From: Halogeometricum borinquense DSM 11551
GTDB taxonomy: Archaea > Halobacteriota > Halobacteria > Halobacteriales > Haloferacaceae
Assembly: GCF_000172995.2 (NCBI RefSeq)
Contig: NC_014729.1
Location: 510,001-542,000, forward strand
Reading direction: 5' to 3'
DNA: 32,000 nt
The position numbers and the translations under genes are program-made. Within the stretch, counting starts at the first letter, position 1. Every line of letters starts with the position of its first letter. This document shows positions 4,165-17,511 of this stretch, piece by piece. A model generated the notes under the pieces. That model searched no databases. It saw nothing but the letters and a program-made list of their open reading frames with translations, and was not told the DNA's origin.

Positions 4165-4313
4165 TTTTCGTTGGTACGCCCGGTGCGTGCAAAAGTTCAA
4201 TGGTCGTTCGTGTGCGAAGACGCCGCTTACCAATGCTGCCGCAGTGCCTTCGTGAAGCGCACTGCTATCGCTCGGCGGATCGCGTCGAAAAAACGTAGCG
4301 TGTTGTGTGTCGC

Positions 4314-6293
4314 TTAGTCGTCCGCGGGCGTCGCGCCGCTACTGCCCTCTTGCTCGTACTGCTCTTTCGTGAGGCGGAGCTTGCCACCCGCAGAGAGGAT
4401 ACGACGTTCGCGCTCGGAGGCGTCCAGCTGTGCCGTGGCTTCCCAGTCGTCGTTCACGCGGATGGTGAACTCCTCTTGACCGGATTCGACGGCCGCTGCA
4501 ACGTCCGTGACGACTTCGACGTCGTCGCCCTGCTCGATCTTCTCGTACGTCTCCTCGTCGATTGCGAGGGGGAGAATACCGAAGTTGAACAGGTTCGCCT
4601 TGTGGATGCGGGCGAACGACTGCGCCAGCACAGCCTCGATACCGAGGTACTGCGGGCACATGGCGGCGTGTTCACGCGAGGAACCCTGACCGTAGTTCTC
4701 ACCTGCGACGAGGACACCGCCGTCGGCGTCCATCGAGCGCTGTGCGAACGTATCGTCCACGCGCGAGAGCGTGAACTCGGAGAGCTTCTCGATGTTCGAG
4801 CGGAACTTGAGGATGTCCGACGTGGCCGGAATGATGTGGTCCGTCGTGATGTTGTCGTCCATCTTCAGGAGCGCTTCGCCCTGAATGTCCGCTTCGAGCG
4901 GCTCGCCAATCGGCGCGTTGCCGATGTTCGGACCCTTGATGAGTTCGTCGTCAACGGCCTCATCAGGCGAGATGAGGTCGGCTTTCGAGCCGTCGTACTT
5001 GTCGGGGAGTTCGACGCCGGGCGCTTCGAGGTCGTCGAGTTCGTCGGCGAGGTCGCGCGGATCGACGATTTCGCCTTTGAGCGCCGCGGCAGCGGCGACT
5101 TCCGGCGAGCAGAGATAGACGTTGTCGTCCTCGATACCGGAGCGACCCTCGAAGTTGCGGTTGAACGTCCGCAGAGAGACGGAGTCGGAGGCGGGAACGT
5201 GACCGATGCCGATACAGGCACCACACGTCGCCTCGGAGAAGTTGACACCGGCAGCCATCATTTCGGCAGCCCAGCCCTGACGGGCGAGGATCTCGGAAGC
5301 CTGCTTCGAACCGGGTGCGACGATCATCTCCGTCTTCTTGTTCACTTCGCGGTCTTCGAGCATCTTCGCGGCCGGAAGGATGTCCTCGTAGCCACCGTTC
5401 GTACAGGAACCGACGATAACCTGCTCGACGGACTCGCCCGCAACCTCGCGGACGGGTACGACTTTGTCAGGCATCGACGGGCAGGCGATGAGCGGTTCGA
5501 GATCCGAGAGATCGACGACGATTTCGTCGGCGTACTCGGCGTCCTCGTCGGGCGAGAGTTCGACGTACTCGTCCTCACGACCCTGTCGTGCGAGGTAGTC
5601 TTTGGTCTCCTCGTCCGTCGGGAAGATGGACGAGGTGGCACCGAGTTCCGTACCCATGTTCGTGATCGTCGTTCGCTCGGGGACGGTGAGCGTCTCGACG
5701 CCCGGGCCGGTGTACTCGAACACCTTGCCGACGCCACCCTTCACGGAGAGACGGCGGAGCAGTTCGAGGATGACGTCCTTTGCGGTGGCCCATTCGGGGA
5801 GCTCACCTTCGAGACGGATGTTGACGACTTCCGGCATCTCGACGTAGTATGCGCCGCCACCCATGGCGACGGAGATGTCGAGGCCACCCGCACCGATTGC
5901 GAGTTGACCGAGGCCGCCGGGCGTCGGCGTGTGGGAGTCCGAACCGAGGAGCGTCTTGCCGGGTGCGGCGAAGTTCTCCTTGTGGACGTTGTGACAGATA
6001 CCGTTGCCGGGACGGGAGAAGTGAGCACCGTACGTCCCTGCCGCAGAGCGGAGGAAACGGTGGTCGTCGGTGTTCTTGAAGTCGAACTGGTACGTCTGGT
6101 GGTCGCAGTACTGCGCCGCCAGTTCAGTCTGCACTTCGTCGAGTTCGAGCGCCTCGAACTGCAGCCAGACCATCGTACCGGTTGTGTCCTGTGTGAGGAC
6201 CTGATCGATCTCGATTCCGATCTCCTCTCCGGGTTCGAGTTCCCCTTCGACGAGGTGGTCATCGAGAATTTTTTCCGTGAGCGTCTGTCCCAT
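4314..6293 (-). CDS. acnA: Aconitate hydratase
   Basis: 659-aa ORF with Fe-S aconitase signatures: GSDSHTPTPGGLG, GSCTNGGYED, NRNFEGRSG, and a swivel-domain C-terminus (AGENYGQGSSREHAA). A TATA-like TTATAAAT at 6320-6327 lies about 30 nt upstream of the ATG. Confidence 0.92.
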   Translation of the reverse strand: MGQTLTEKILDDHLVEGELEPGEEIGIEIDQVLTQDTTGTMVWLQFEALELDEVQTELAAQYCDHQTYQFDFKNTDDHRFLRSAAGTYGAHFSRPGNGICHNVHKENFAAPGKTLLGSDSHTPTPGGLGQLAIGAGGLDISVAMGGGAYYVEMPEVVNIRLEGELPEWATAKDVILELLRRLSVKGGVGKVFEYTGPGVETLTVPERTTITNMGTELGATSSIFPTDEETKDYLARQGREDEYVELSPDEDAEYADEIVVDLSDLEPLIACPSMPDKVVPVREVAGESVEQVIVGSCTNGGYEDILPAAKMLEDREVNKKTEMIVAPGSKQASEILARQGWAAEMMAAGVNFSEATCGACIGIGHVPASDSVSLRTFNRNFEGRSGIEDDNVYLCSPEVAAAAALKGEIVDPRDLADELDDLEAPGVELPDKYDGSKADLISPDEAVDDELIKGPNIGNAPIGEPLEADIQGEALLKMDDNITTDHIIPATSDILKFRSNIEKLSEFTLSRVDDTFAQRSMDADGGVLVAGENYGQGSSREHAAMCPQYLGIEAVLAQSFARIHKANLFNFGILPLAIDEETYEKIEQGDDVEVVTDVAAAVESGQEEFTIRVNDDWEATAQLDASERERRILSAGGKLRLTKEQYEQEGSSGATPADD

Positions 6294-6603
6294 AACGTCC
6301 CGATTTCGACTGTCTACGATTATAAATCCCGCGTGTTTGAGGTCAGACGTATGTTCATTATATGCATATTCTGACCTACATGGACAATAGTGAACGTGGA
6401 CGAGGGCAGGCGATTCGTTTTTCGGATCATGTCAAATTACGGATTAGTGTCTCCTTTCTCGGTTGCAGACTCACGGAAGCGACCCGCGAAAATATTCAGA
6501 CGCTTCGGTACTGTTGTGGCATCATCCACCCAAAATCGGCCATTCTGGCTCGACTGTTTGTTGGAACAAAACAAGTATTACGGACAAACGCAACCAGTGT
6601 CTC

Positions 6604-7002
6604 ATGGATGACTCTCTCGTAGCGAGAGTGTGGGGGGACGTCACCGAACGCGTTGGTGACGACCTACGAGCAGTCACACAGTACGAGGCGACATCGTTCG
6701 CGACTCGAATGCGGGAGGATCTTCGAGACGTGTACGATGCCGACGACAACCAGACGATAGTGGACGATACGATCGTCACGCTATTGAGCGGCCGTGACAG
6801 CGAGCGAACGCTCGAAACCGGTGAGTTTCGCGCATTCGTTCGCGTATTCGACGACGCGTGGATTCTCACGTGGGTCGATGGCCTGCCGAAGAAGTCCGGG
6901 TTCCTCATCTCCATCGAACGAGACGGAGAAACGGCGACGATGAACGACGTAGAGTGGTGTATTCAGTATCTGGACGAAGAGATTGAACCGCTGATAGAGT
7001 GA
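6604..7002 (+). CDS. Conserved-looking acidic hypothetical protein
   Basis: The tracked ORF starts at 6463, but its first 47 codons lie in AT-rich promoter DNA and are basic and odd-looking. The internal ATG at 6604 (MDDSLVARVWGDVTERVGDDL...) starts the acidic part with high GC3. No domain recognised. Confidence 0.6.
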   Translation: MDDSLVARVWGDVTERVGDDLRAVTQYEATSFATRMREDLRDVYDADDNQTIVDDTIVTLLSGRDSERTLETGEFRAFVRVFDDAWILTWVDGLPKKSGFLISIERDGETATMNDVEWCIQYLDEEIEPLIE

Positions 7003-7055
7003 CTTCGTCGCGTCCAGAACGATAGCACTTTGCCTTTCCTCGAACCCACTCCGGT

Positions 7056-7538
7056 ATGTTTCGATCCGGTTCGTTCGTTGCCGACCACGTGGAACCGATA
7101 GCTGACTCGCAAGTTCAACCGAACGGCGTCGATCTGACGCTCGACTCGCTTTACGAGCAGGTTTCGCCCGGACGGCTCGGCGTTGACGGCAAAGAAATCG
7201 GCGACAGAGAACCCGTCTCAGCGGATTCGGACGACGGCTCGTACGTCCTCCCGCCCGGTGGGTACATCCTTCAGTACGCCGAGACAATTCACATTCCCGA
7301 GGGCCACGTCGGCTTTCTCTATCCCCGGTCGTCGCTCATGCGCAACTCCTGTATGCTCAACACGGCTGTCTGGGACGCCGGATACGAAGGGAAAGGAGAG
7401 GGTCTGTTGCAGGTTCACCACGACATCGAACTCGAACCCGGCGCGCGAATTGCTCAACTCGTCCTCGCGCGCGGGAACCACGATGATGTGTACGACGGGA
7501 GCTATCAGGGCGAACGAGTCAACTCCCCCGAAAGATAG
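7056..7538 (+). CDS. dut: dUTP diphosphatase / dCTP deaminase-superfamily protein (short archaeal type)
   Basis: 160-aa ORF with QPNGVDLTL, HIPEGHVGFLYPRSSLMRN and GARIAQLVL blocks typical of the trimeric dCTP deaminase/dUTPase fold. The short length favours dUTPase over dCTP deaminase. Confidence 0.75.
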   Translation: MFRSGSFVADHVEPIADSQVQPNGVDLTLDSLYEQVSPGRLGVDGKEIGDREPVSADSDDGSYVLPPGGYILQYAETIHIPEGHVGFLYPRSSLMRNSCMLNTAVWDAGYEGKGEGLLQVHHDIELEPGARIAQLVLARGNHDDVYDGSYQGERVNSPER

Positions 7539-7592
7539 ATTCGGGTTCGGCTCGTTCGTACTCCCAGCTTGTCAGATGGCGGCCGCTACGCA

Positions 7593-8609
7593 ATGACCGA
7601 AACTCCAACAGAGATCTACCGGTCGATCTTCCACGAGACGCCGAATCCGACTGTCATTACGGACGAGTCGTTCTCTATCGTCGATGTCAACGAAGCCTGT
7701 CTGGAGTTTACGGGATACACCCGCGAGGAGATTCTCGGGTCGCCGCCGCTATTTCTCGTGAACGACTCGCAGACGTACGAGGAGATGGTGGACACGTTGG
7801 CCGCCGGGGAACCGTGGGAGGGTGAGATCGAAGCCGTGACCAAGTACGGCGAACGTGTCTTCGGTTACGGTGCAACGTTCCCGCTCATAACCGATGGCGA
7901 ACTCGTCGGTTACGCGGGTATCTTTATCGACCTCTCGGAACGCCGCCGGAGCGAGCAGACCGTCAGCGTCCTTAACCGCGTCCTTCGACACAACATCCGC
8001 AACGACGCGAACGTCATCGGAGGCGTCCTTTCGACGATCAAACATGCCGTTTCGGGCGTCGAACGCGAACTCGTCGAGAAGGCACTGGAGCGAATCGAGC
8101 GACTGCTCGACAGAGCCGAGACCGCCCGTGACCTCCACCAACTTCTCGAACGGTCTTCGACTGCTCTCGTACCACGGGACCTCTGTAACGTGGTCGAAAC
8201 GACCGCCCCGAAACTAGTCGATGAACGGACGACGCTCCATCTCGATGTACCCGACGATCCTGTCTGGATTCTCGCAGACGACGCACTTTCACGCGGTGTC
8301 GCCGCCGTCGTGGAGAATGCGGTCGAGTACAATCAGGACGCTTCTCCAATGATCTGGATTCATGTGGAGACGACGCCGGACGAGGTCGTGTTGACCGTCG
8401 AAGACAACGGTCCCGGTATCGAACCCGAACAGGCTGAGTTCCTGTTCGGTCAATGTGAAGACTCCCAACTTCGGCACGGGCAGGGTCTCAGCTTATTCTT
8501 CGTCGACCGACTGCTCGACTTCTACGGTGGGTCGGTCACGTACCGCCCGCGCAGTCCGACTGGCTCGATCTTCGAGTTGCGGTTCCGCCACGTCTCCCGG
8601 CCGACGTGA
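7593..8609 (+). CDS. PAS-domain sensor histidine kinase
   Basis: N-terminal PAS block (NPTVITDESFSIVDVNEACLEFTGYTREEILG). H-box-like VLRHNIRNDANVI, N-box VENAVEYN, G1 box VEDNGPGIEPE. The ATG at 7593 (MTETP) is preferred over the upstream start at 7569. Confidence 0.8.
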   Translation: MTETPTEIYRSIFHETPNPTVITDESFSIVDVNEACLEFTGYTREEILGSPPLFLVNDSQTYEEMVDTLAAGEPWEGEIEAVTKYGERVFGYGATFPLITDGELVGYAGIFIDLSERRRSEQTVSVLNRVLRHNIRNDANVIGGVLSTIKHAVSGVERELVEKALERIERLLDRAETARDLHQLLERSSTALVPRDLCNVVETTAPKLVDERTTLHLDVPDDPVWILADDALSRGVAAVVENAVEYNQDASPMIWIHVETTPDEVVLTVEDNGPGIEPEQAEFLFGQCEDSQLRHGQGLSLFFVDRLLDFYGGSVTYRPRSPTGSIFELRFRHVSRPT

Positions 8610-11111: not shown

Positions 11112-11375
11112 TTAATCCGCGTCGTGCAGTCGAGTGTGTGAGGACTCACAGACGCTACTGCCCGATAGCGGCGGATCCACGAACAGGCCGTATACCAACA
11201 TCGCCACCGACGGCAGCCCGCCGAGACTGACGCCGAAAGCGACGCGGATGTCGGTGATTACGGCCACGAGGATGCCGAGAAGCATCGGGAGCGGGAGGAG
11301 TGCCAACAACCAGTCGTACCGCGATTCGACTGCTGGAACGATAGTCTCACCAGTGGGGCGTTTACTGACACTCAT
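11112..11375 (-). CDS. Small membrane protein (two predicted TM helices)
   Basis: 87-aa ORF with hydrophobic segments WLLALLPLPMLLGILVAVI and LGGLPSVAMLVYGLFV. The overlapping 211-aa plus-strand ORF looks like an antisense shadow. Confidence 0.55.
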   Translation of the reverse strand: MSVSKRPTGETIVPAVESRYDWLLALLPLPMLLGILVAVITDIRVAFGVSLGGLPSVAMLVYGLFVDPPLSGSSVCESSHTRLHDAD

Positions 11376-11502
11376 CCGTACTCACCTCGTTCCCGAATAC
11401 GGACGGTTCCGTAGTAAAGATTACGCCGAACCCGCCGGTTCCTTCGGGGAGACGTGTCGATACGTTACGGAAAACCTCCGAGGATTGGACGCCACGCTTC
11501 GT

Positions 11503-11760
11503 TCAGCGGATTCGCTCCGCTACTGTCACCGCGCAGTACTTGCAACGGTACACCCGGTACGGCGTTCGGGAGTACGCCTTGTTCACCTCGCGCACGCCCT
11601 CTCTCGTCTCGCGTTCTTGCACTCTGACGGCGACTTCGTGTTCCCGTTCGCCGCCACACCGGTCGCACTCTCTGACGACCGCTTCGGGGACGCCTGCGTC
11701 GGTGTCGTGACCTTGGTACGCTATGGTGACGTGGCGTACACCGACATGCGTGCTATCCGT
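11503..11760 (-). CDS. Small zinc-ribbon protein (CxxC-N37-CxxC); start codon unresolved, possibly a pseudogene or non-canonical start
   Basis: Hand translation of the minus frame ending at TGA 11503-11505 gives ...TIAYQGHDTDAGVPEAVVRECDRCGGEREHEVAVRVQERETREGVREVNKAYSRTPYRVYRCKYCAVTVAERIR*. The frame is open up to TGA 11887-11889. The first in-frame ATG/GTG/TTG is the GTG at 11620-11622, downstream of the first CxxC. It is absent from the ORF track for that reason. The 5' end given here is arbitrary. Confidence 0.4.
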   Translation of the reverse strand, partial: TDSTHVGVRHVTIAYQGHDTDAGVPEAVVRECDRCGGEREHEVAVRVQERETREGVREVNKAYSRTPYRVYRCKYCAVTVAERIR

Positions 11761-12039
11761 TATCGCTGACGAGGCGAGTGTCAGCGTCCAGTGATAGTTC
11801 CGGGAGATTATGAGAGAGCCGTAGAACGGGGGACCGACCGCTCGCCCGACAGATTTGTGTCGTTCTTTCGCATGTCTTACTGCTTCTCACACCCGAGAGC
11901 TAGTGGCTACCGTGACGCGAGTCGCATACCGACGATCAACTCCAGTTCCGAGTAAATGCGTTTTGTCGATACGAACCGCAACATCAGTGGGTCTAGTTCT
12001 ATCCCGACAACGTGCCTGATTCGGAGTGCTGAGGGGAGA

Positions 12040-12048
12040 TTTTATTAC
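12040..12048 (+). promoter_or_regulatory. TATA-box-like element for the 452-aa island gene (leaderless geometry)
   Basis: TTTTATTAC is centred about 28 nt upstream of the ATG at 12072, the usual spacing for haloarchaeal leaderless transcripts. Confidence 0.45.
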
Positions 12049-12071
12049 TCTCTGACAGTACCGGACGTATT

Positions 12072-13430
12072 ATGTCATCCTCTGACACCGCTCACTGGTC
12101 TGAGACACTGCGTGTGATGTTGAATGCGTCTTCCACGACAGACTCCGAAGTGACCGCCTTTATCGACGAGACGATACCGGATGGAGAGAACAAACTGTAC
12201 GACAACAAGCGCCAAGCGTTCATCCATGCGGATAGCAGTGACCAAGGCAAGGAACGGAATTTCCGATTATTGAAGCACATTTGTGCCCTTGCGAACACCC
12301 GTGGAGAGCAACGGTACAGGTACCTCTTCATCGGATTCGGTGACTCTGGGGGCTTCATCGGTGCCAGTGATTGGGACGCTAACGGCGGGGAGCACGTGGT
12401 TGAAGTCGATGAAGCTCGTGTTCAGGACCTCCTTTCGGATAGTCTTGACCCGGTTCCTGAGGTTGAGCGCACTGTGCTCACTCAAGATGACAACACTGCT
12501 GCGGTACTCTCGGTTCGGAGGTCGGATTCTCCACCAGTATTGTTTGACACCTCGATAACCACGAGTGGGGGTGCGACCACATTAGTGAAGAGCGGAGTTG
12601 GCTACGTGAGGAAGGGCTCACAGTCGCGCCCAATGCGTAATTCGGACTATAGAGTCATCATCGAACGCCGGGAAGACCTCGTGAACGAGAAGATTGAGGA
12701 AGCGCTCGGTGGGTTGCAGAGGATGGTTGGAATCTCCTCGGACCAACTTGAGAATCTGGAGATATCGGCGACATCAAGCGACGAGGGCGTCCCTATCGAC
12801 GAAATTGTGACGACAGAAGGTTACAGTGACCTCAACAAGCGACTATCCCTATCTGTTAAGGAGTGGAATTCAAGCGGCGAGCTCTACTCGTCGCGCGGGG
12901 CTGTGTACACGATGTTGAAGCGACGCGATGAGCTGGAACTGGACAACGAAAGGTGTGAATTCCTTGCGTGGAGTACCTTGAACAACAATTTCCCGCCAAC
13001 TGAGTGGATTATCCACCACGAAAATGACTTAGAGGATAGTTTGCTCAGCTTCTACCAAGCCCAACTGAATGGCCGCATGATATCCGTATTTGAGGCGGTC
13101 AACTATATGTTAGAGAATGAAAGGGTACTACGCGCCATCAGCGACGATGGCAGTATGGATTTCCAGTCATCCAAGGCAGACACCTACCTTGACTCAATAA
13201 CGGACCCGCCGGTGGAAAAGATTGAGGACCTCACGGCAAGACGGAACCTGAATATCACCGGCCACGATTACCCAATTACCGATATCGTCACCTCTGGTGG
13301 CCCAGTCGAAACGGGGCTGGAAGAAGTGGTTGACCGCCTAATCAGCGATGATGAAAGTAATGACAGGAGCATATTACGAGACATCGAATATACTAGGCTG
13401 GCGCAATACGTGAGTTCGGACCCAGAGTAA
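12072..13430 (+). CDS. AlbA_2 / Schlafen-like (divergent AAA) N-terminal domain protein with an uncharacterised C-terminal half
   Basis: 452-aa ORF with AT-rich codon usage. The N-terminal roughly 200 aa carry AlbA_2-type blocks: ...WSETL..., FRLLKHICALANTRGEQRYRYLFIGFGDSGGFIGAS, AAVLSVRRSDSPPVLF, GVGYVRKGSQSRPMRNSDYRVIIERR. Residues from about 220 to 452 show no motif I recognise. Confidence 0.75.
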   Translation: MSSSDTAHWSETLRVMLNASSTTDSEVTAFIDETIPDGENKLYDNKRQAFIHADSSDQGKERNFRLLKHICALANTRGEQRYRYLFIGFGDSGGFIGASDWDANGGEHVVEVDEARVQDLLSDSLDPVPEVERTVLTQDDNTAAVLSVRRSDSPPVLFDTSITTSGGATTLVKSGVGYVRKGSQSRPMRNSDYRVIIERREDLVNEKIEEALGGLQRMVGISSDQLENLEISATSSDEGVPIDEIVTTEGYSDLNKRLSLSVKEWNSSGELYSSRGAVYTMLKRRDELELDNERCEFLAWSTLNNNFPPTEWIIHHENDLEDSLLSFYQAQLNGRMISVFEAVNYMLENERVLRAISDDGSMDFQSSKADTYLDSITDPPVEKIEDLTARRNLNITGHDYPITDIVTSGGPVETGLEEVVDRLISDDESNDRSILRDIEYTRLAQYVSSDPE

Positions 13431-13940
13431 CACGCGTTCTCATCTGTGGATGTCATTCCGAGGGCGGGCAATAGCTCACTTTACACCGGCGATAGGGATA
13501 CACAGTCAGCCGTTTCTATACTGTCCGGGAGGGCGTGCTTCGTAGTTGTTTAACAACTAAGCAGATGGCCACGGCGGTATCGGCTGAAACCGCAGAAAAC
13601 TGCCGTTTGAGTCGCACCCCGGACTCAAAACACAGAAAGACCGAACTAACATCGACACGGAGTGGAAACAGAAGTACGTACGTACTCATTCCACTTCTAT
13701 AACCAGAACGACAACGACAGTGGTGGTTGACTGGCTGACAGGCAACCACTTGGTCATCGGGGCGGGCCGACTATCTCCCGCCCCTCCCGTGTATACCGTA
13801 CTGACGAGTGCGTAGGACAATTGTGGGACGGCTCAAAGCGCGTTTCCGTACTGCGGATAGCGAGGGAGGCCCCGCCGACCGCCTCCTCGGCGGAAAAAGT
13901 AAATATCGCTGGCTGAAATTATCGTTATCACCGTATTCTG

Positions 13941-14138
13941 ATGACCTATACACCACCAGAAAAAATCAAGGAATTAGCAAAAGAAGCACAAAGCAACCCT
14001 CTGAGAGACGCTTCTCTGCTTCTCCCCCCTCTCAGTGCTTTTGCGTTATCCGCTTACCCAAAGTATGGTGTTTGGGGACTTGTTTTGACAGTGTTAATCG
14101 GCTTAGTTTCAGTATCACTTGCCCAGTATTTTAAATAA
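13941..14138 (+). CDS. 65-aa micro-membrane protein (two hydrophobic segments)
   Basis: MTYTPPEKIKELAKEAQSNPLRDASLLLPPLSAFALSAYPKYGVWGLVLTVLIGLVSVSLAQYFK. This is the most AT-rich part of the window. AAATTAT at 13916-13922 lies about 22 nt upstream. The ORF ends in tandem TAA TAA stops followed by T5 at 14142-14146. Confidence 0.45.
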   Translation: MTYTPPEKIKELAKEAQSNPLRDASLLLPPLSAFALSAYPKYGVWGLVLTVLIGLVSVSLAQYFK

Positions 14139-14400
14139 TAATTTTTATCGCGGGTGTCGGGGCGGCCGATATTGCGTGAATTAATCGCCACGCTTCTGGC
14201 GCGGACACCCACCCCCTATCCAGTGAGGAACTGAAAGCCGCCCGCGCCAATTTCGACGGGGGGAGTCGTACCGCCTTCGGATGATTATGGGCGTAGGGAG
14301 AGAGGTAGCGCGCAGAACATATATCAGATTGGTAGAGTAGTATGGCGCGTTCGCTCCGATAGGCCCGCAAATTGTCTACACAATTGGCTACACAAAACAG

Positions 14401-16218
14401 TTACTTCCCCCAGAAGGGGTCACGCTGTCGGTGTTTATCCAAATATCCAGTCAACGCTTCGAGTTCGTCGGCGGGAATCTCGTCGGACAGTTCCTGTTCG
14501 AGAATCTTCGCGTGTTTCTCGGGCAGTTCCGTCCAGAGTTCGTCGCCCTCCTCGATCTGTCGGCCGACCGTGGGGCCGTCGATGGCGACCGAAACGCGGT
14601 TGCCCGCGCGGGCTTCCGAAACGTCCTCGCCCTGCTCTTGGATGCCGGAGAGTTGGCCGACGCGGGTGGTTTCGTTGCCCTCCCACTTCACGACGTTCGC
14701 GTTGTTTTTCAGCGTCCCCGAGAGGACTTCGACGCCGACGACGGCGGGGCTCGACTGTCGGAAGACGTGATCTTCGAGGATGCGGAACCGGCAGGGTCGC
14801 ATGATCTTGTCCAGCACCGTCTCCTGCTGGGCGCGCTTGCGTTCCTCGACGAACTCCTCGTACTCCTCGATGAGTTGGTAGATAACGTCGTCCTTGAACA
14901 GACGCACGTCGCCCGTTTTCTCCAGTTCGTCCTCGGCGTTGGCGAGTACGTCCACGTTGAAGCCGAGGATGACCTTGTTCTCCATCTCGCGGGCTGTCGA
15001 GGCGACGGCCACGTCGCGCGGGGCAACGTCGCCGACTTCTGCGCGGAGAATCGGGACTTCCGCTTCGCGCAGCGCGTTCGCCATCGCCTCCAAACTGCCG
15101 AGGGTGTCCGCCTTCACGACGACACCCTCTTCTTCGGTATCCACTTCGATTTCGGCCAGTTCGGACTCAACCTCGGCGATAACGTCGTCTACAGGCTGGT
15201 CGCGGACGACGCGAATCGGCGCGCCCGCCATCGCATCATCGAGATCCGGAGCGGCAATTTTGATACCCGCGGCGGCGCGTACCTCTTCGACCTTATCGAA
15301 CCGTTTCTCGGTTCGAATCTCGGCGTTCGGCCGCGGTTGCAGGAGGGCCCGAACTTCCGTGACGATAGGGCCGTTGACACCGCCGACGACGATCGTGTCG
15401 CTCTCGCGGACACTCCCGTCGTACAGGACAACGTCTACTGTCGCACCGAACCCGCGCTCTTCTTTCACTTCGAGGACGGTTCCCGCGCCGGGACCGCCCA
15501 CGTCTACGGCCATCTCCTCTTTCATGTATCGTTGGGAGAGACCCATGAGAACCGCGAGCAAGTCAGGAATCCCTTCGCCGGTCATTGCCGACAGCGGGAC
15601 GACGCCGACGTTCTTCTGGAAGTTCTGCACGCGCCAGTAGAGGTCCGCAGAGAAGCCTTCGTCCGAGAGATTACCGATTATCTCGTAGAGGTTCTGGTCC
15701 AGTCGTTGCCGGGCGTTGTCCGACTGGTTCTCGTACGTCTCCTGAATGGGTGATCCGTCGTTCGGGTTCCATCCGGGCGTCGTGTCAATTTTGTTGGCGG
15801 CGACCACGAACGGCGTCCCGGTTCGCTTGAGGATGTCGAGCGCCTCGATGGTCTGCGGTTGGAATCCGTCGTTAACGTCAACGACGACAATGGCGATGTC
15901 GGCCAGTGCGCCACCGCGTGATCGAAGCGTCGAGAACGAGTGATGCCCGGGCGTGTCGATGAACAACAATCCGGGAAGGTCGAAGTCGTCCGGATTGACG
16001 AGACTGCCGGCCATCTGTGAGACCGTATCTAGCGGAACCGCCGTAGCGCCGATGTGTTGTGTGATCGCGCCTGCTTCGCCTTCCGAGACCGCAGAGCCGC
16101 GAATCTTGTCGAGCAGCGTCGTCTTGCCGTGATCGACGTGCCCGAGAACAGCGACGATGGGGGTTCGGAGTGCGTTCGATTCAGTCGTGGAAGGAGCGTC
16201 GGCGTCGGTGTCAGACAT
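14401..16218 (-). CDS. infB: Translation initiation factor aIF5B (IF2-type GTPase)
   Basis: 605-aa ORF with G1 GHVDHGKTT, G3 DTPGH and G4 NKID, plus the domain II-IV layout typical of aIF5B. A TATA-like TCTATATCGATA at 16241-16252 lies about 28 nt upstream of the ATG. Confidence 0.95.
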   Translation of the reverse strand: MSDTDADAPSTTESNALRTPIVAVLGHVDHGKTTLLDKIRGSAVSEGEAGAITQHIGATAVPLDTVSQMAGSLVNPDDFDLPGLLFIDTPGHHSFSTLRSRGGALADIAIVVVDVNDGFQPQTIEALDILKRTGTPFVVAANKIDTTPGWNPNDGSPIQETYENQSDNARQRLDQNLYEIIGNLSDEGFSADLYWRVQNFQKNVGVVPLSAMTGEGIPDLLAVLMGLSQRYMKEEMAVDVGGPGAGTVLEVKEERGFGATVDVVLYDGSVRESDTIVVGGVNGPIVTEVRALLQPRPNAEIRTEKRFDKVEEVRAAAGIKIAAPDLDDAMAGAPIRVVRDQPVDDVIAEVESELAEIEVDTEEEGVVVKADTLGSLEAMANALREAEVPILRAEVGDVAPRDVAVASTAREMENKVILGFNVDVLANAEDELEKTGDVRLFKDDVIYQLIEEYEEFVEERKRAQQETVLDKIMRPCRFRILEDHVFRQSSPAVVGVEVLSGTLKNNANVVKWEGNETTRVGQLSGIQEQGEDVSEARAGNRVSVAIDGPTVGRQIEEGDELWTELPEKHAKILEQELSDEIPADELEALTGYLDKHRQRDPFWGK

Positions 16219-16435
16219 GAAAAATCACTCCGAGAAGTGTTCTATATCGATACGCAGGGGGCACCGAAGTTAAGTCCATCGTCACGTCCGGACAAGCGCC
16301 AGCGCGAGACGTGAGGACGCGCCGGATTTCGGACAAATCGACGGACAGTCCAGTTTTCCAGACTGCCCAATACGCTTTGATTCCTCCGTCTGTCCCTCTC
16401 ATCGATACGTCTCGCCATTGACTCGCGACCTGTAA

Positions 16436-16718
16436 TTACCAATTTACTATTTGGAAGCGACCAACTAAGTACCAATATATCGCTCTCGGACATCACAGAA
16501 TTACCAATATATTACCACTGCCGTTTTCGCCGGGACCAATCTATGACGCCTCGGGACTGTCCCAGTACCAACTTATTGCGACCCGATCACTAGAACATAC
16601 CAAATTATTACCACACTGTCACTCCCTCATTACCGCCTTATTACCAGCTTGCTACCGCTCGTCGGACGGTCGTCGGACGGTCCCCGTGGCACTTATGTTA
16701 CCGTGGTCGAATACCTCT
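16436..16718 (+). repeat. Array of about 13 same-orientation TTACCAA-like motifs (consensus roughly TTACCAAyWTA) phased at multiples of about 10.7 bp
   Basis: The ACCA(A/C/G) or ACCG core starts at 16438, 16460, 16471, 16503, 16514, 16535, 16567, 16599, 16610, 16632, 16643, 16654 and 16700. Successive spacings are 22, 11, 32, 11, 21, 32, 32, 11, 22, 11, 11 and 46. No reverse-complement TGGTA copy occurs in the interval. Confidence 0.7.
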
Positions 16719-16722
16719 CCTC

Positions 16723-16968
16723 ATGGCCGATGTACTCGCCGAGAATCTCTCCGGGAAGGCCGTCATGGGTTCTGACGGGACGGAGCTCGGAATGCTGTAC
16801 AACATCACGATGAATCTGAAGACGGGGAAGCTCCACGATCTGCTCGTCTCGCCGCACGAGGAGATTCATCCGGATCAGTTCTCCTTCCAACAAGACGAGC
16901 AGGGGCGCTTTTGCGTCCCCGTCTCTCGGGTCCAAGCCGTAAAAGACTACATCGTCGTTCAACGATAG
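16723..16968 (+). CDS. PRC-barrel domain protein
   Basis: 81-aa ORF. LSGKAVMGSDGTELGMLYNITMNLKTGKLHDLLV is the typical PRC-barrel core. A TATA-like CTTATGTTA at 16692-16700 lies about 27 nt upstream. Confidence 0.8.
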   Translation: MADVLAENLSGKAVMGSDGTELGMLYNITMNLKTGKLHDLLVSPHEEIHPDQFSFQQDEQGRFCVPVSRVQAVKDYIVVQR

Positions 16969-16986
16969 ACAGGGACAACACTGCCG

Positions 16987-17445
16987 ATGCAGGTTCTCGA
17001 CTCTTCCGCGTTCATCCACGAGTACCACACCGACGACCAGACAGCCTCAATTCCGCTCGTCAGCGACGAGTTGGAGGGAGAGGCTTCCTTCCGCTTCGAC
17101 GCTATGGAAGGGGCGGGGATGCACATCCACATCCCCGCGTCGGGAACCGTCGAGAAAATCCGGCGCGCTGCCGGGGAAACTGGCGACCGAGAGACGCTCT
17201 CGGACACAGACATCCGTCTTCTGGCCGCCGCGTTCGAACTTGACGCGACTCTCGTCACCGACGATTACGCGATGCAGAACGTCGCCGAACGCGTCAACGT
17301 ACACGTAAACGTCATCGCACAGGACGGTATCGAAGAACAGCGCGACTGGCGGTTCCAGTGTCAAGGCTGTGGCCGCGAGTTCGACGAACACAAAGACCGC
17401 TGTCCCATCTGCGGGATGGAACTCGCGCGGAAGAATCCGGCGTAA
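16987..17445 (+). CDS. nob1: Nob1-type endonuclease (PIN domain plus C-terminal zinc ribbon), 16S rRNA 3'-end maturation
   Basis: 152-aa ORF. The N-terminal MQVLDSSAFI and the later LVTDDYAMQNVA are PIN acidic-residue contexts. The C-terminus has CQGCGREF...CPICG. Confidence 0.85.
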   Translation: MQVLDSSAFIHEYHTDDQTASIPLVSDELEGEASFRFDAMEGAGMHIHIPASGTVEKIRRAAGETGDRETLSDTDIRLLAAAFELDATLVTDDYAMQNVAERVNVHVNVIAQDGIEEQRDWRFQCQGCGREFDEHKDRCPICGMELARKNPA

Positions 17446-17511
17446 CGGCTGCGACAGACAGCTCAACGCCATCCGCGCTTTCGGGAAATCCGGTCCACTG
17501 AGCGGTGCGTA

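What the first reader, a model, noticed from the sequence alone, without database searches (positions are those of the whole stretch)
12072..13430. AlbA_2/Schlafen-like N-domain fused to an unrecognisable, very acidic C-terminal half of about 230 aa
Residues from about 10 to 200 carry the block structure of the AlbA_2 (Schlafen-type, divergent AAA) domain: ...SETL..., LLKHICALANTRGEQ..YLFIGFGDSGGFIG, AAVLSVRRSDSPPVLF and GYVRKGSQSRPMRNSDYRVIIERR. Most prokaryotic AlbA_2 proteins I know continue into a HATPase_c_4-like region and a winged HTH. Here the C-terminal half (…ELYSSRGAVYTMLKRRDELELDNERCEFLAWSTLNNNFPPTEWIIHHENDLEDSLL…) shows no Gly-rich nucleotide-binding or HTH-like pattern that I can see. 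In eukaryotic Schlafens the equivalent fold is a tRNA/rRNA endoribonuclease core. Extending that activity to this protein is pure inference.
Basis: partly seen in the sequence, partly recalled or inferred. Interest (0 to 1): 0.6.

Follow-up and report, generated by a model that had tools for sequence, protein, structure and literature searches.

The report
Haloarchaeal Schlafen nuclease, candidate antiviral gene
This Halogeometricum borinquense gene, carried on a small foreign DNA insert, encodes a Schlafen-type nuclease with an intact catalytic motif fused to an undescribed helical domain that related archaeal proteins attach to a SIR2 enzyme instead, so it is most likely a one-gene antiviral system of a kind first demonstrated in bacteria in 2026.

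Summary
ORF 12072..13430 (+, 452 aa; WP_006055275.1, Halogeometricum borinquense) has a Pfam SLFN_AlbA_2 domain above threshold. Its C-terminal half matches nothing in Pfam, NCBIfam, PADLOC, the PDB (sequence and fold) or BFVD.

The "very acidic" remark is ordinary halophile composition (pI 4.45; neighbours 4.14-4.54).

- **N-domain:** E39-x4-D44-x-K46-R47 matches the E17/D22/K24/R25 catalytic centre of CbCash, a proven prokaryotic Schlafen tRNase. E39, D44 and K46 are invariant in 20 diverse relatives.
- **C-domain:** a confident all-helical model defines a small, almost purely haloarchaeal family (35 clusters among 1.84 billion representatives). Six members carry it behind a SIR2_2 domain with intact TTNYD/KIHGC motifs instead of Schlafen.
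- **Context:** the gene lies on a ~2.9 kb low-GC insertion absent from the same site in 80 related loci. Relatives sit beside BREX, Kiwa and restriction-modification genes or in integrase-bearing elements. No partner gene is conserved.

Best reading: a stand-alone sensor-effector defence protein of the pSlfn kind (two 2026 papers). The tRNA target, the trigger and defence itself are inferred. It is a new member of a known kind whose sensor-like domain is new. Interest is moderate.

The parts
12072..13430 (+). Complete gene for the 452-aa Schlafen/AlbA_2 plus novel C-domain protein (WP_006055275.1 / ADQ66159.1, Halogeometricum borinquense).
   Evidence: ORF list. 100% identical database entry P0001.
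12096..12635 (+). N-terminal module, aa ~9-188: a two-helix extension (aa 9-34) followed by a single Schlafen/AlbA_2 nuclease unit.
   Evidence: Pfam PF04326 at 38-40 bits over aa 58-188. AF2 model with pLDDT mostly 80-92 in this region. Foldseek hits to 3lmm, 2kyy and the SLFN11/13/5 cores. CbCash at E 1.3e-6.
12186..12212 (+). Predicted catalytic motif E39-N-K-L-Y-D44-N-K46-R47 (Ex4DxK-R).
   Evidence: E39, D44 and K46 are invariant in 20 family members. D44/K46/R47 align to CbCash D22/K24/R25, and E39 falls on E17 by contiguous numbering. E17Q, D22N and K24A abolish tRNA cleavage in CbCash (PMC13462974).
12636..12821 (+). Linker, aa ~189-250: a long helix (190-219) followed by an acidic, low-confidence segment that contains a conserved G-VP-x-E-x-x-TT motif.
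   Evidence: AF2 secondary structure, with pLDDT below 50 for aa 214-250. D+E is 24%. Motif conservation is visible in the alignments.
12822..13418 (+). C-terminal all-helical domain, aa ~251-449, with one small beta-hairpin (392-401). It is unannotated in every library searched and is the putative sensor/regulatory module shared with SIR2_2 proteins.
   Evidence: AF2 pLDDT about 86-95. No Pfam/NCBIfam/PADLOC/PDB/BFVD match. A profile built only from Schlafen-fused sequences hits SIR2-fused proteins at E 1e-31 to 6e-23 over about 215-230 residues.
11501..14390 (.). Roughly 2.9 kb low-GC insertion carrying the gene, between the conserved 87-aa membrane ORF (11112..11375, -) and aIF5B (14401..16218, -). 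The boundaries are approximate.
   Evidence: GC is 53.3% against 61.8% for the rest of the window. The DUF5811-to-aIF5B gap is 3,338 bp here, 407 bp in H. pallidum and mostly under 1 kb in the other related loci where aIF5B is adjacent; none of the 80 loci has the gene. Flank alignment with H. pallidum.
12040..12047 (+). TATA-box-like TTTTATTA centred about 28 nt upstream of the ATG, compatible with a leaderless haloarchaeal transcript.
   Evidence: Read directly from the sequence. The interpretation rests on general knowledge of haloarchaeal promoters and is not tested.

Best explanation
The gene encodes a stand-alone, horizontally acquired antiviral (abortive-infection type) protein of the prokaryotic Schlafen (pSlfn) kind. 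The N-terminal single Schlafen/AlbA_2 unit is a metal-dependent endoribonuclease whose active centre is E39/D44/K46, with R47 lining it. Its most likely substrate is tRNA. The C-terminal helical domain (aa ~251-449) is a non-enzymatic sensor/regulatory module that keeps the nuclease off until it detects an infection cue, most likely a viral protein or nucleic-acid product. It then probably drives a change of oligomeric state that assembles competent nuclease interfaces, halting translation in the infected cell. The same module controls a SIR2 NADase in sister proteins, so it acts as an interchangeable switch for two different effectors. Shown here: the domain identities, the conserved catalytic motif, the shared C-domain, the insertion, and the defence or mobile-element neighbourhoods. 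Inferred: RNase activity, the tRNA target, the trigger, the oligomerisation mechanism, and defence itself.
For: (1) Schlafen domain above the Pfam threshold. The fold matches prokaryotic AlbA_2 structures and the SLFN11/13/5 nuclease cores. (2) The Ex4DxK-R motif is invariant in 20 sequences that share only about 35% identity and aligns residue for residue with CbCash D22/K24/R25. In CbCash those residues are required for tRNA cleavage (PMC13462974), and Ex4(E/D)xK is the conserved pSlfn motif (PMC13056530). (3) Effector swap: six relatives carry the same C-domain behind SIR2_2. They keep TTNYD and KIHGC invariant and match the PADLOC defence candidate PDC-S25 at E about 1e-80, plus ThsA, LmuA and Dsr1 more weakly. 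(4) The C-domain's invariant residues are hydrophobic or aromatic (L258, W265, L298, W312), with no conserved catalytic-looking polar cluster, and it diverges faster than the nuclease domain (28.5% against 35.5% mean pairwise identity). Published pSlfn5 sensors show the same pattern. (5) Context: BREX PglZ/PglX plus Kiwa KwaA/KwaB plus SNF2/PDDEXK in Halostella salina. A SIR2_2 gene plus an MmeI-type RM enzyme in Haladaptatus. An Eco57I-type methyltransferase plus an HATPase_c_3 protein in a Methanofastidiosia MAG. Integrase, transposase or DUF7845 elements for the SIR2 forms. A megaplasmid variable region in Halocatena. (6) No homologous neighbour recurs between loci, so the protein is self-contained. 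(7) The gene is a ~2.9 kb insertion absent from the syntenic site in 80 related loci. Family genes are typically 10-25 GC points below their flanks, for example 39% against 64% in Halonotius. (8) The family is rare and patchy: 35 clusters at 50% identity among 1.84 billion representatives.
Against: There is no experimental evidence for any member of this family. In the window itself, and in Halonotius roseus, no known defence gene lies within 10 kb, so the defence-island argument rests on the other loci. About 30% of published pSlfn genes are not defence-associated and may have other roles. The C-domain has no structural or sequence relative, so its sensor role is argued only by analogy and from the effector swap. 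The Foldseek E-values for the Schlafen cores are modest (2e-3 to 0.5), and the inter-domain arrangement is unreliable (pTM 0.47). No haloviral contig or phage record carries the family, and no trigger is known. The substrate could be another RNA, or DNA.
Confidence: 0.62

Rival explanations
1. It is a signal-activated effector of a multi-gene pathway, like Cash (Schlafen-Csx15, activated by cA4) or ThsA (SIR2-SLOG, activated by a TIR-made nucleotide). The C-domain would bind a small-molecule second messenger made by a sensor encoded elsewhere in the genome.
For: The two best-characterised architectures of Schlafen or SIR2 fused to a regulatory domain work this way (PMC13462974). The SIR2 modules of the sister proteins resemble ThsA at E 1e-15 to 1e-21.
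Against: No cyclase, TIR, Cas10 or CRISPR gene lies next to any of the roughly 12 loci examined, and no neighbour is conserved between loci. The window copy sits alone on a 2.9 kb insert. The C-domain model is all-helical rather than Rossmann-like (CARF/SAVED/SLOG/Csx15), and it has no fold match.
Confidence: 0.12
2. It is a non-immune nucleic-acid-binding or regulatory protein, as its database names suggest ('AlbA family DNA-binding', 'ATP-binding protein', 'predicted HTH transcriptional regulator'). It might, for example, be an RNA-processing factor or a regulator for a mobile element.
For: Names given by source databases. About 30% of pSlfn genes lack any defence association. The neighbours in the window and in Halonotius are housekeeping genes.
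Against: There is no HTH, ATPase or kinase-like domain by sequence or fold. The catalytic triad is invariant, which a mere binding protein would not need. The interchangeable partner is a SIR2 NADase with intact catalytic motifs. The distribution is patchy and the low GC looks foreign. Several loci are clear defence islands.
Confidence: 0.1
3. It is a defence nuclease, but it acts on DNA or on non-tRNA RNA, for example cutting invading DNA or sensing restriction products, rather than acting as a tRNase.
For: Many defence-linked Schlafen homologs associate with DNA-targeting systems (RM, BREX, type I CRISPR), and the Cash authors speculate that some sense DNA-cleavage products. This family also neighbours RM and BREX genes.
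Against: Every Schlafen nuclease characterised so far that has this motif cleaves tRNA: SLFN11/13, CbCash and RorSlfn5.
Confidence: 0.12

Closest known systems
CbCash (CRISPR-associated Schlafen; PDB 9ylu/9ylv/9ylx; Weickert, Liu & Strecker, Nat Commun 2026, PMC13462974)
   Same: It has a single-unit prokaryotic Schlafen/AlbA_2 nuclease at the N-terminus and a regulatory domain at the C-terminus. It is the best solved relative by sequence (E 1.3e-6). The catalytic centre is the same type: E-x4-D-x-K-R (E17/D22/K24/R25 against E39/D44/K46/R47). N45, D81 and R144 of CbCash also align with the invariant N75, D113 and R180, by my own count from the alignment.
   Different: Cash's C-domain is Csx15, a Rossmann-like cA4 sensor, and the gene is linked to type III CRISPR. 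Here the C-domain is an unrelated all-helical fold, there is no CRISPR or cyclase linkage, the N-terminus has a two-helix extension, and an 11-residue insert follows the motif. Only the nuclease domains are detectably related.
pSlfn single-gene phage-defence systems, e.g. RorSlfn5 (Schlafen plus Ig-like sensor) and EcoSlfn7 (DUF262-Slfn) (Perez Taboada et al., Nat Microbiol 2026, PMC13056530)
   Same: The logic is the same: a conserved Ex4(E/D)xK Schlafen effector fused to a variable, faster-evolving domain, encoded as a stand-alone gene that is often near other defence genes. That paper reports 1,020 pSlfns with unannotated partner domains in 558 clusters, and this protein may be among them, because H. 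borinquense has a complete RefSeq genome.
   Different: All tested systems are from Enterobacterales, and no archaeal member has been tested. The partner domain here is helical rather than an Ig-like beta-sandwich. Neither paper mentions SIR2, according to a full-text term search. I could not check the supplementary tables because they are not held.
SIR2-effector defence proteins: PADLOC candidate PDC-S25, ThsA (Thoeris), DSR1/DSR2
   Same: The sister proteins (P0017, P0020-22, P0029, P0032) have a PDC-S25-like SIR2 module (E about 1e-80) with invariant TTNYD/KIHGC, followed by a C-terminal regulatory domain. This is the same N-terminal-effector, C-terminal-sensor layout as ThsA and DSR.
   Different: The window protein has no SIR2 domain. 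The shared C-domain is not part of the PDC-S25, ThsA or DSR models: the C-domains alone hit nothing in PADLOC.
Eukaryotic Schlafens (SLFN11, SLFN12, SLFN13, SLFN5)
   Same: They share the AlbA_2-derived fold and the ExxxxExK-type catalytic motif. Foldseek hits 7fex, 5yd0, 7zel and 7cux at probability 0.5-0.98, and there are weak SLFN12 sequence hits.
   Different: [quoted passage not shown] This protein has a single unit, uses Asp instead of the second Glu, and has an unrelated C-terminus.
Canonical prokaryotic AlbA_2-HATPase_c_4-wHTH proteins (e.g. DIP2311, PDB 3lmm)
   Same: The N-terminal AlbA_2 fold; 3lmm is the top Foldseek hit (E 1.8e-3, probability 1.00).
   Different: The histidine-kinase-like ATPase and winged-helix domains that define that architecture are absent here.

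Membership tests
Pfam SLFN_AlbA_2 (PF04326) domain family | Score above the curated gathering threshold of the family HMM. | tested here: met
   38.3 bits for the whole protein and 40.5 bits for the N-half, against a cut-off of 25.3, over residues 58-188. The precomputed PF04326 assignment is also present for the homologs.
Catalytically competent Schlafen nucleases (pSlfn / SLFN11-type) | Conserved Ex4(E/D)xK active-site motif. | tested here: met
   E39-NKLY-D44-N-K46 is invariant in 20 of 20 family members. It aligns to CbCash D22/K24, with E17 matched by contiguous numbering. The motif definition comes from PMC13056530 and PMC13462974.
Catalytically competent Schlafen nucleases (pSlfn / SLFN11-type) | Schlafen/AlbA_2 three-dimensional fold. 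| tested here: met
   The AF2 N-domain has pLDDT about 80-92. The top Foldseek PDB hits are all AlbA_2 or Schlafen structures: 3lmm, 2kyy, 7fex, 5yd0, 7zel and 7cux, at probability 0.5-1.0. The E-values are modest (2e-3 to 0.5).
Catalytically competent Schlafen nucleases (pSlfn / SLFN11-type) | Metal-dependent endonucleolytic cleavage of tRNA. | not testable with these tools
   This requires purified protein and cleavage assays.
pSlfn single-gene phage-defence systems | Schlafen effector fused to a distinct, variable putative sensor domain in one polypeptide. | tested here: met
   Two-domain AF2 model. The C-domain diverges faster than the N-domain. It is modular, being shared with SIR2 proteins.
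pSlfn single-gene phage-defence systems | Genomic association with known defence genes or mobile elements. | tested here: inconclusive
   Met in Halostella (BREX plus Kiwa), Haladaptatus (SIR2 plus RM), the Methanofastidiosia MAG and L002 (methyltransferase). Not met in the window itself or in Halonotius, where the neighbours are housekeeping genes, although both copies are low-GC foreign DNA. The sample is too small for statistics.
pSlfn single-gene phage-defence systems | Protection against virus infection, with a virus-encoded trigger. | not testable with these tools
   This requires halovirus challenge or trigger co-expression experiments.
Cash (CRISPR-associated Schlafen) | Csx15 / Rossmann-like cyclic-oligoadenylate sensor domain fused to the Schlafen domain. 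| tested here: not met
   The CbCash match covers only the nuclease domain (chain residues 18-162). The C-domain is all-helical with no PDB match.
Cash (CRISPR-associated Schlafen) | Linkage to a type III CRISPR-Cas locus. | tested here: not met
   No cas genes appear in the window or in any homolog locus examined.
   There is no such Pfam match at E<=10 for the window protein, nor at E<=1 for any of 26 C-domains. Foldseek aligns 3lmm mainly through the N-domain, and no wHTH or GHKL hit appears for the C-domain.
PADLOC PDC-S25 (SIR2 single-gene defence candidate) | Match to the PDC-S25 HMMs. | tested here: not met
   The window protein has no PDC-S25 hit at E<=10. Only the SIR2-fused sister proteins match, at E about 1e-80 and through their SIR2 module. 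The C-domains alone do not match.

The most novel reading that the evidence does not exclude
The C-terminal ~200-residue helical domain is a previously undescribed, largely haloarchaea-specific virus-sensing module. It directly recognises a halovirus component and can switch on either of two unrelated suicide effectors, a Schlafen tRNase or a SIR2 NADase. That would make this the first archaeal Schlafen immune system and a new sensor fold with a portable activation mechanism.
Probability: 0.4. Interest if true: 0.65.

Novelty: new member of a known kind. Interest (0 to 1): 0.45.

Why it matters
Schlafen tRNases were shown to act in bacterial immunity only in 2026, and no archaeal example has been tested. 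This family offers three things.

- It is a compact, self-contained archaeal candidate in a cultivable organism that has a complete genome.
- It has a partner domain with no relatives in any library searched. The natural swap between Schlafen and SIR2 effectors marks that domain as a regulatory module and gives a built-in experimental control.
- It gives a handle for finding halovirus triggers, which are almost unknown.

It would also correct misleading database names ("ATP-binding protein", "AlbA family DNA-binding", "HTH transcriptional regulator"). If it turns out not to be defensive, it would be a documented case of a catalytically intact Schlafen with a non-immune role.

Tried and rejected
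- **First AF2 run:** only 4 sequences, pLDDT 38, unusable. Replaced by a 20-sequence alignment that gave pLDDT 80.
- **Word-indexed homolog search with the C-domain profile:** only 5 proteins returned. The exhaustive HMM search was needed.
- **The search for related loci with the diverse C-domain alignment:** failed because no stretch was conserved enough.
- **uS15 resemblance:** the C-domain profile gave a borderline PDB hit to ribosomal protein uS15 (E 0.0085). None of the 26 members matches the Pfam S15 model or any recurring family, so I treat it as chance.
- **PDC-S25 containing the C-domain:** rejected, because the C-domains alone hit nothing in PADLOC.
- **Conserved partner gene** (for example the HerA-like DUF87 or the methyltransferase seen in L002 and L095): rejected, because all-against-all BLAST of neighbours found no homology between loci.
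- **Viral carriage:** no hit in IMG/VR or in GenBank phage records.
- **Insertion mechanism:** no tRNA gene, no Rfam match, no convincing att or direct repeats, and no Pfam domain in the small flanking ORFs. How the insert arrived is unknown.
- **"Very acidic" as a functional clue:** rejected as halophile background.
- **Published tables:** supplementary tables of both 2026 papers are not held, so I could not check whether WP_006055275.1 is already listed.
Full report
**1. The observation**

The window comes from the chromosome of the haloarchaeon Halogeometricum borinquense. The ORF product is 100% identical to WP_006055275.1 / ADQ66159.1.

Pfam SLFN_AlbA_2 (PF04326) matches residues 58-188 at 38.3 bits, or 40.5 bits for the N-half alone, against a gathering cut-off of 25.3. 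Residues 221-452 match nothing in Pfam even at E<=10. The whole protein matches nothing in NCBIfam and only noise in PADLOC.

The one descriptor that does not stand is "very acidic". The protein has pI 4.45 and its C-half 4.21, while the neighbouring housekeeping proteins range from 4.14 to 4.54 (aIF5B 4.43, PAN 4.37). This is normal halophile composition.

**2. The N-terminal domain is a Schlafen nuclease unit with an intact active site**

An AlphaFold2 model built on 20 diverse family members reached mean pLDDT 80, with both domains confident. A first attempt with 4 sequences failed at pLDDT 38. Foldseek against the PDB returned only AlbA_2 or Schlafen structures for the N-domain:
- 3lmm (DIP2311) and 2kyy;
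- pig and human SLFN11 (7fex, 7zel);
- SLFN13 (5yd0) and SLFN5 (7cux).

Probabilities were 0.5-1.0 and E-values 2e-3 to 0.5.

By sequence profile, the best solved relative is CbCash (9ylu, E 1.3e-6). CbCash is a prokaryotic Schlafen-Csx15 fusion that cleaves tRNA T-loops when activated by cA4. Its catalytic centre is E17/D22/K24 plus Mg2+, with R25 lining the pocket, and the E17Q, D22N and K24A mutations abolish cleavage (PMC13462974). In the HMM alignment, D44/K46/R47 of the window protein fall on D22/K24/R25, and E39 falls on E17 by contiguous numbering.

E39, D44 and K46 are invariant across 20 family members whose N-domains share only about 35% pairwise identity. So are N75, G97, D113, P127, P129, P155, R180 and S183. 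The motif fits the Ex4(E/D)xK signature reported for 5,930 prokaryotic Schlafens (PMC13056530). Unlike eukaryotic Schlafens, this protein has a single Schlafen unit, as in CbCash, preceded by a two-helix extension (aa 9-34).

**3. The C-terminal half is a real, novel, modular domain**

It is strongly conserved in the three close homologs, at 57-70% identity. Those are Halonotius roseus WP_142443839.1 and two metagenomic proteins.

An exhaustive HMM search of 1.84 billion representative proteins, using a profile built only from the four Schlafen-fused C-halves, found 35 clusters: 26 at E<=1e-10 and 14 at E<=1e-30. Most have the same ~445-aa architecture. Named members come from Haladaptatus, Natronomonas, Halostella, Halonotius and Halocatena, plus one Methanofastidiosia MAG.

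Six proteins carry the domain behind a SIR2_2 domain instead of Schlafen:
- P0017, P0020, P0021 and P0032, from metagenomes;
- P0022, Halovenus salina WP_267163640.1;
- P0029, Halopiger aswanensis WP_120244086.1.

For four of them the match is strong (E 1e-31 to 6e-23) and covers about 215-230 of the 250 profile positions. P0029 (E 3e-12) and P0032 (E 3e-7) match more weakly and over a shorter part of the profile.

These SIR2 modules keep TTNYD and KIHGC invariant. From my own knowledge, those are the catalytic Asn and His motifs of SIR2 defence NADases such as ThsA. They match the PADLOC single-gene defence candidate PDC-S25 at E about 1e-80, and ThsA, LmuA and Dsr1 more weakly. The C-domains alone match nothing in PADLOC, so the shared domain is not part of PDC-S25.

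The model shows the C-domain (aa ~251-449, pLDDT about 86-95) as all-helical with one small beta-hairpin. It is joined to the nuclease by a long helix (190-219) and a low-confidence acidic linker (214-250). It has no credible fold match in the PDB or BFVD and no sequence match in the PDB beyond a borderline uS15 hit. That hit is not reproduced by any of the 26 members in Pfam.

Its invariant positions are hydrophobic or aromatic (L258, W265, L298, W312; nearly invariant L271, L353, Y372, R436, E439). That argues for a structural or binding role rather than catalysis. It also diverges faster than the nuclease domain (28.5% against 35.5%).

**4. Genomic context**

All the window's neighbours are housekeeping genes:
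- a Bat-type regulator, GNAT acetyltransferases, dCTP deaminase and a PAS histidine kinase;
- the PAN proteasomal ATPase, pyruvoyl arginine decarboxylase and DUF5811;
- aIF5B, an Rce1-like protease, PGI, SecD/F and Pus10.

The gene itself lies in a GC trough of 53%, against 62% elsewhere.

I fetched the DUF5811 locus from 80 related Haloferacaceae genomes. Wherever aIF5B is adjacent, the gap between DUF5811 and aIF5B is mostly under 1 kb; it is 407 bp in H. pallidum, where it holds only the conserved 87-aa membrane ORF. In the window the gap is 3,338 bp. None of the 80 loci has the Schlafen gene. Flank alignment places the insertion at roughly 11,501-14,390.

The insertion has no tRNA gene, no Rfam match, no convincing terminal repeats and no recognisable gene remnants, so the insertion mechanism is unknown.

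Family members are usually far below their host's GC content:
- Halonotius: 39% against 64%;
- Halovenus: 39% against 61%;
- Halopiger: 40% against 60%;
- Halostella: 42% against 58%.

The Halocatena megaplasmid copy is the one exception (53% against 51%). This points to recurrent horizontal transfer.

The neighbourhoods elsewhere are as follows.
- **Halostella salina:** PDDEXK/UvrD nucleases, an SNF2 helicase, [the gene], PglZ, a 1,460-aa PglX-like methyltransferase, then KwaA and KwaB. This is a textbook defence island.
- **Haladaptatus sp. W1:** a 284-aa SIR2_2 protein, an MmeI-type RM enzyme and HSDR_N genes.
- **Methanofastidiosia MAG:** an Eco57I-type methyltransferase, an 850-aa HATPase_c_3 protein, RadC and SNase.
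- **L002:** two unknown proteins and an N6_N4 methyltransferase.
- **L003:** PadR and many small ORFs.
- **Halocatena marina:** a megaplasmid variable region.
- **SIR2 forms:** integrase-, transposase- or DUF7845-bearing elements, or next to a HerA-like DUF87 protein and a methyltransferase.

All-against-all BLAST of the neighbours found no gene that travels with the family. The protein therefore appears self-contained.

**5. Mechanism**

The best-supported explanation is a one-protein sensor-effector system. The Schlafen unit is the effector. It is probably a tRNase, because every characterised Schlafen with this motif cleaves tRNA.

The helical C-domain is the switch. The same domain governs a SIR2 NADase in sister proteins, both effector types keep their catalytic residues, and no signal-generating partner gene is ever adjacent. 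The most economical model is therefore direct recognition of a viral component by the C-domain. Recognition would be followed by a change in oligomeric state that forms active nuclease interfaces, which single-unit Schlafens such as CbCash need.

What is shown here: the domain identities, motif conservation, modularity, the insertion and the contexts. What is inferred: the activity, substrate, trigger, oligomerisation and defence phenotype.

The rivals are a second-messenger-activated effector, a non-immune binding or regulatory protein, and a DNA-targeting nuclease. Each is less well supported, for the reasons given in the rival entries.

**6. Comparison with what is known, and novelty**

The kind is known. 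Two 2026 papers established prokaryotic Schlafens as antiviral tRNases fused to diverse sensors. Both explicitly report large sets with unannotated partner domains: 1,020 proteins in 558 clusters in one, and "Cluster 4" in the other. H. borinquense has a complete RefSeq genome, so this protein may already be listed in those tables. I could not check, because the supplements are not held.

It is not a Cash protein, because it has no Csx15 domain and no CRISPR linkage. It is not an AlbA_2-HATPase_c_4-wHTH regulator, and it is not PDC-S25.

What appears new:
- the delineation of the C-domain as a discrete, almost haloarchaea-restricted family;
- its alternative fusion to SIR2, which neither paper mentions (term searches);
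- the archaeal setting, since a full-text search found no paper combining "Schlafen" and "haloarchaea".

I classify it as a new member of a known kind, carrying a novel sensor-like domain.

**7. Verdict**

Interest is moderate at 0.45. A specialist would not be very surprised, given the 2026 literature. Still, the Schlafen/SIR2 swap on a novel domain, sitting on a compact insertion in a cultivable archaeon, is a concrete and testable lead into archaeal antiviral sensing.

Noticed in passing
window 13941-14138 (+): A 65-aa ORF inside the same low-GC insertion, about 510 bp downstream of the Schlafen gene. It has an AT-rich sequence and a hydrophobic C-terminal segment (…GVWGLVLTVLIGLVSVSLAQYFK), and is followed by TAAATAATAATTTTTATC. 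It has no Pfam match and no homolog in the related loci or next to other family members. It may be a small membrane protein or may be spurious.
   Followed up: partly
window 12756-12926 (aa ~229-285 of the protein): The C-domain profile gives borderline PDB sequence hits to ribosomal protein uS15 (best E 0.0085, 18.8 bits) across the most conserved stretch, G-VP-x-E-x-x-TT…L…VK-W. No family member matches Pfam Ribosomal_S15, so this is probably chance, but an S15-like helical RNA-binding hairpin is not excluded.
   Followed up: partly
L093 10214-11068 (Haladaptatus sp. W1): A short 284-aa SIR2_2 protein is encoded immediately downstream of the Schlafen-C-domain gene and is followed by an MmeI-type RM enzyme. 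So SIR2 and Schlafen effectors sit side by side here as separate genes, as well as occurring as alternative fusions elsewhere.
   Followed up: no
L007 8069-9682 and L010 2859-4478: A ~540-aa DUF7845 protein occurs upstream of the SIR2-C-domain gene in both Halovenus salina and Halopiger aswanensis (23% identity, E 1e-25). In Halopiger it is accompanied by an integrase, a D12 methyltransferase, PDDEXK_16 and MazE. The SIR2 forms may ride on a related family of integrative elements.
   Followed up: partly
L009 11476-20159 (Halostella salina): A compact haloarchaeal defence island: PglZ, a 1,460-aa PglX-like methyltransferase (BREX-like), then KwaA and KwaB (Kiwa), preceded by SNF2 and PDDEXK/UvrD genes.
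   Followed up: no
window 16219-17510 and 6000-8500: Two further GC dips (about 55% and 54-59%, against 62%). The first lies between aIF5B and the Rce1-like protease gene and contains overlapping ORFs of 110-152 aa; the one scanned (17047..17472, -) had no Pfam match. It may be another small insertion.
   Followed up: no
window 4305-6374 (+) / 4314-6293 (-): Two long overlapping ORFs on opposite strands (689 and 659 aa). The + strand product has no Pfam match at E<=1e-5, and which strand is coding was not resolved.
   Followed up: no
window 11112-11375 (-): An 87-aa predicted membrane ORF between DUF5811 and the insertion is conserved at 46-65% identity in six of the related loci (H. pallidum, Halopelagius, Halobellus captivus, two Haloquadratum MAGs and Halegenticoccus). 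It marks the ancestral left edge of the insertion site.
   Followed up: partly
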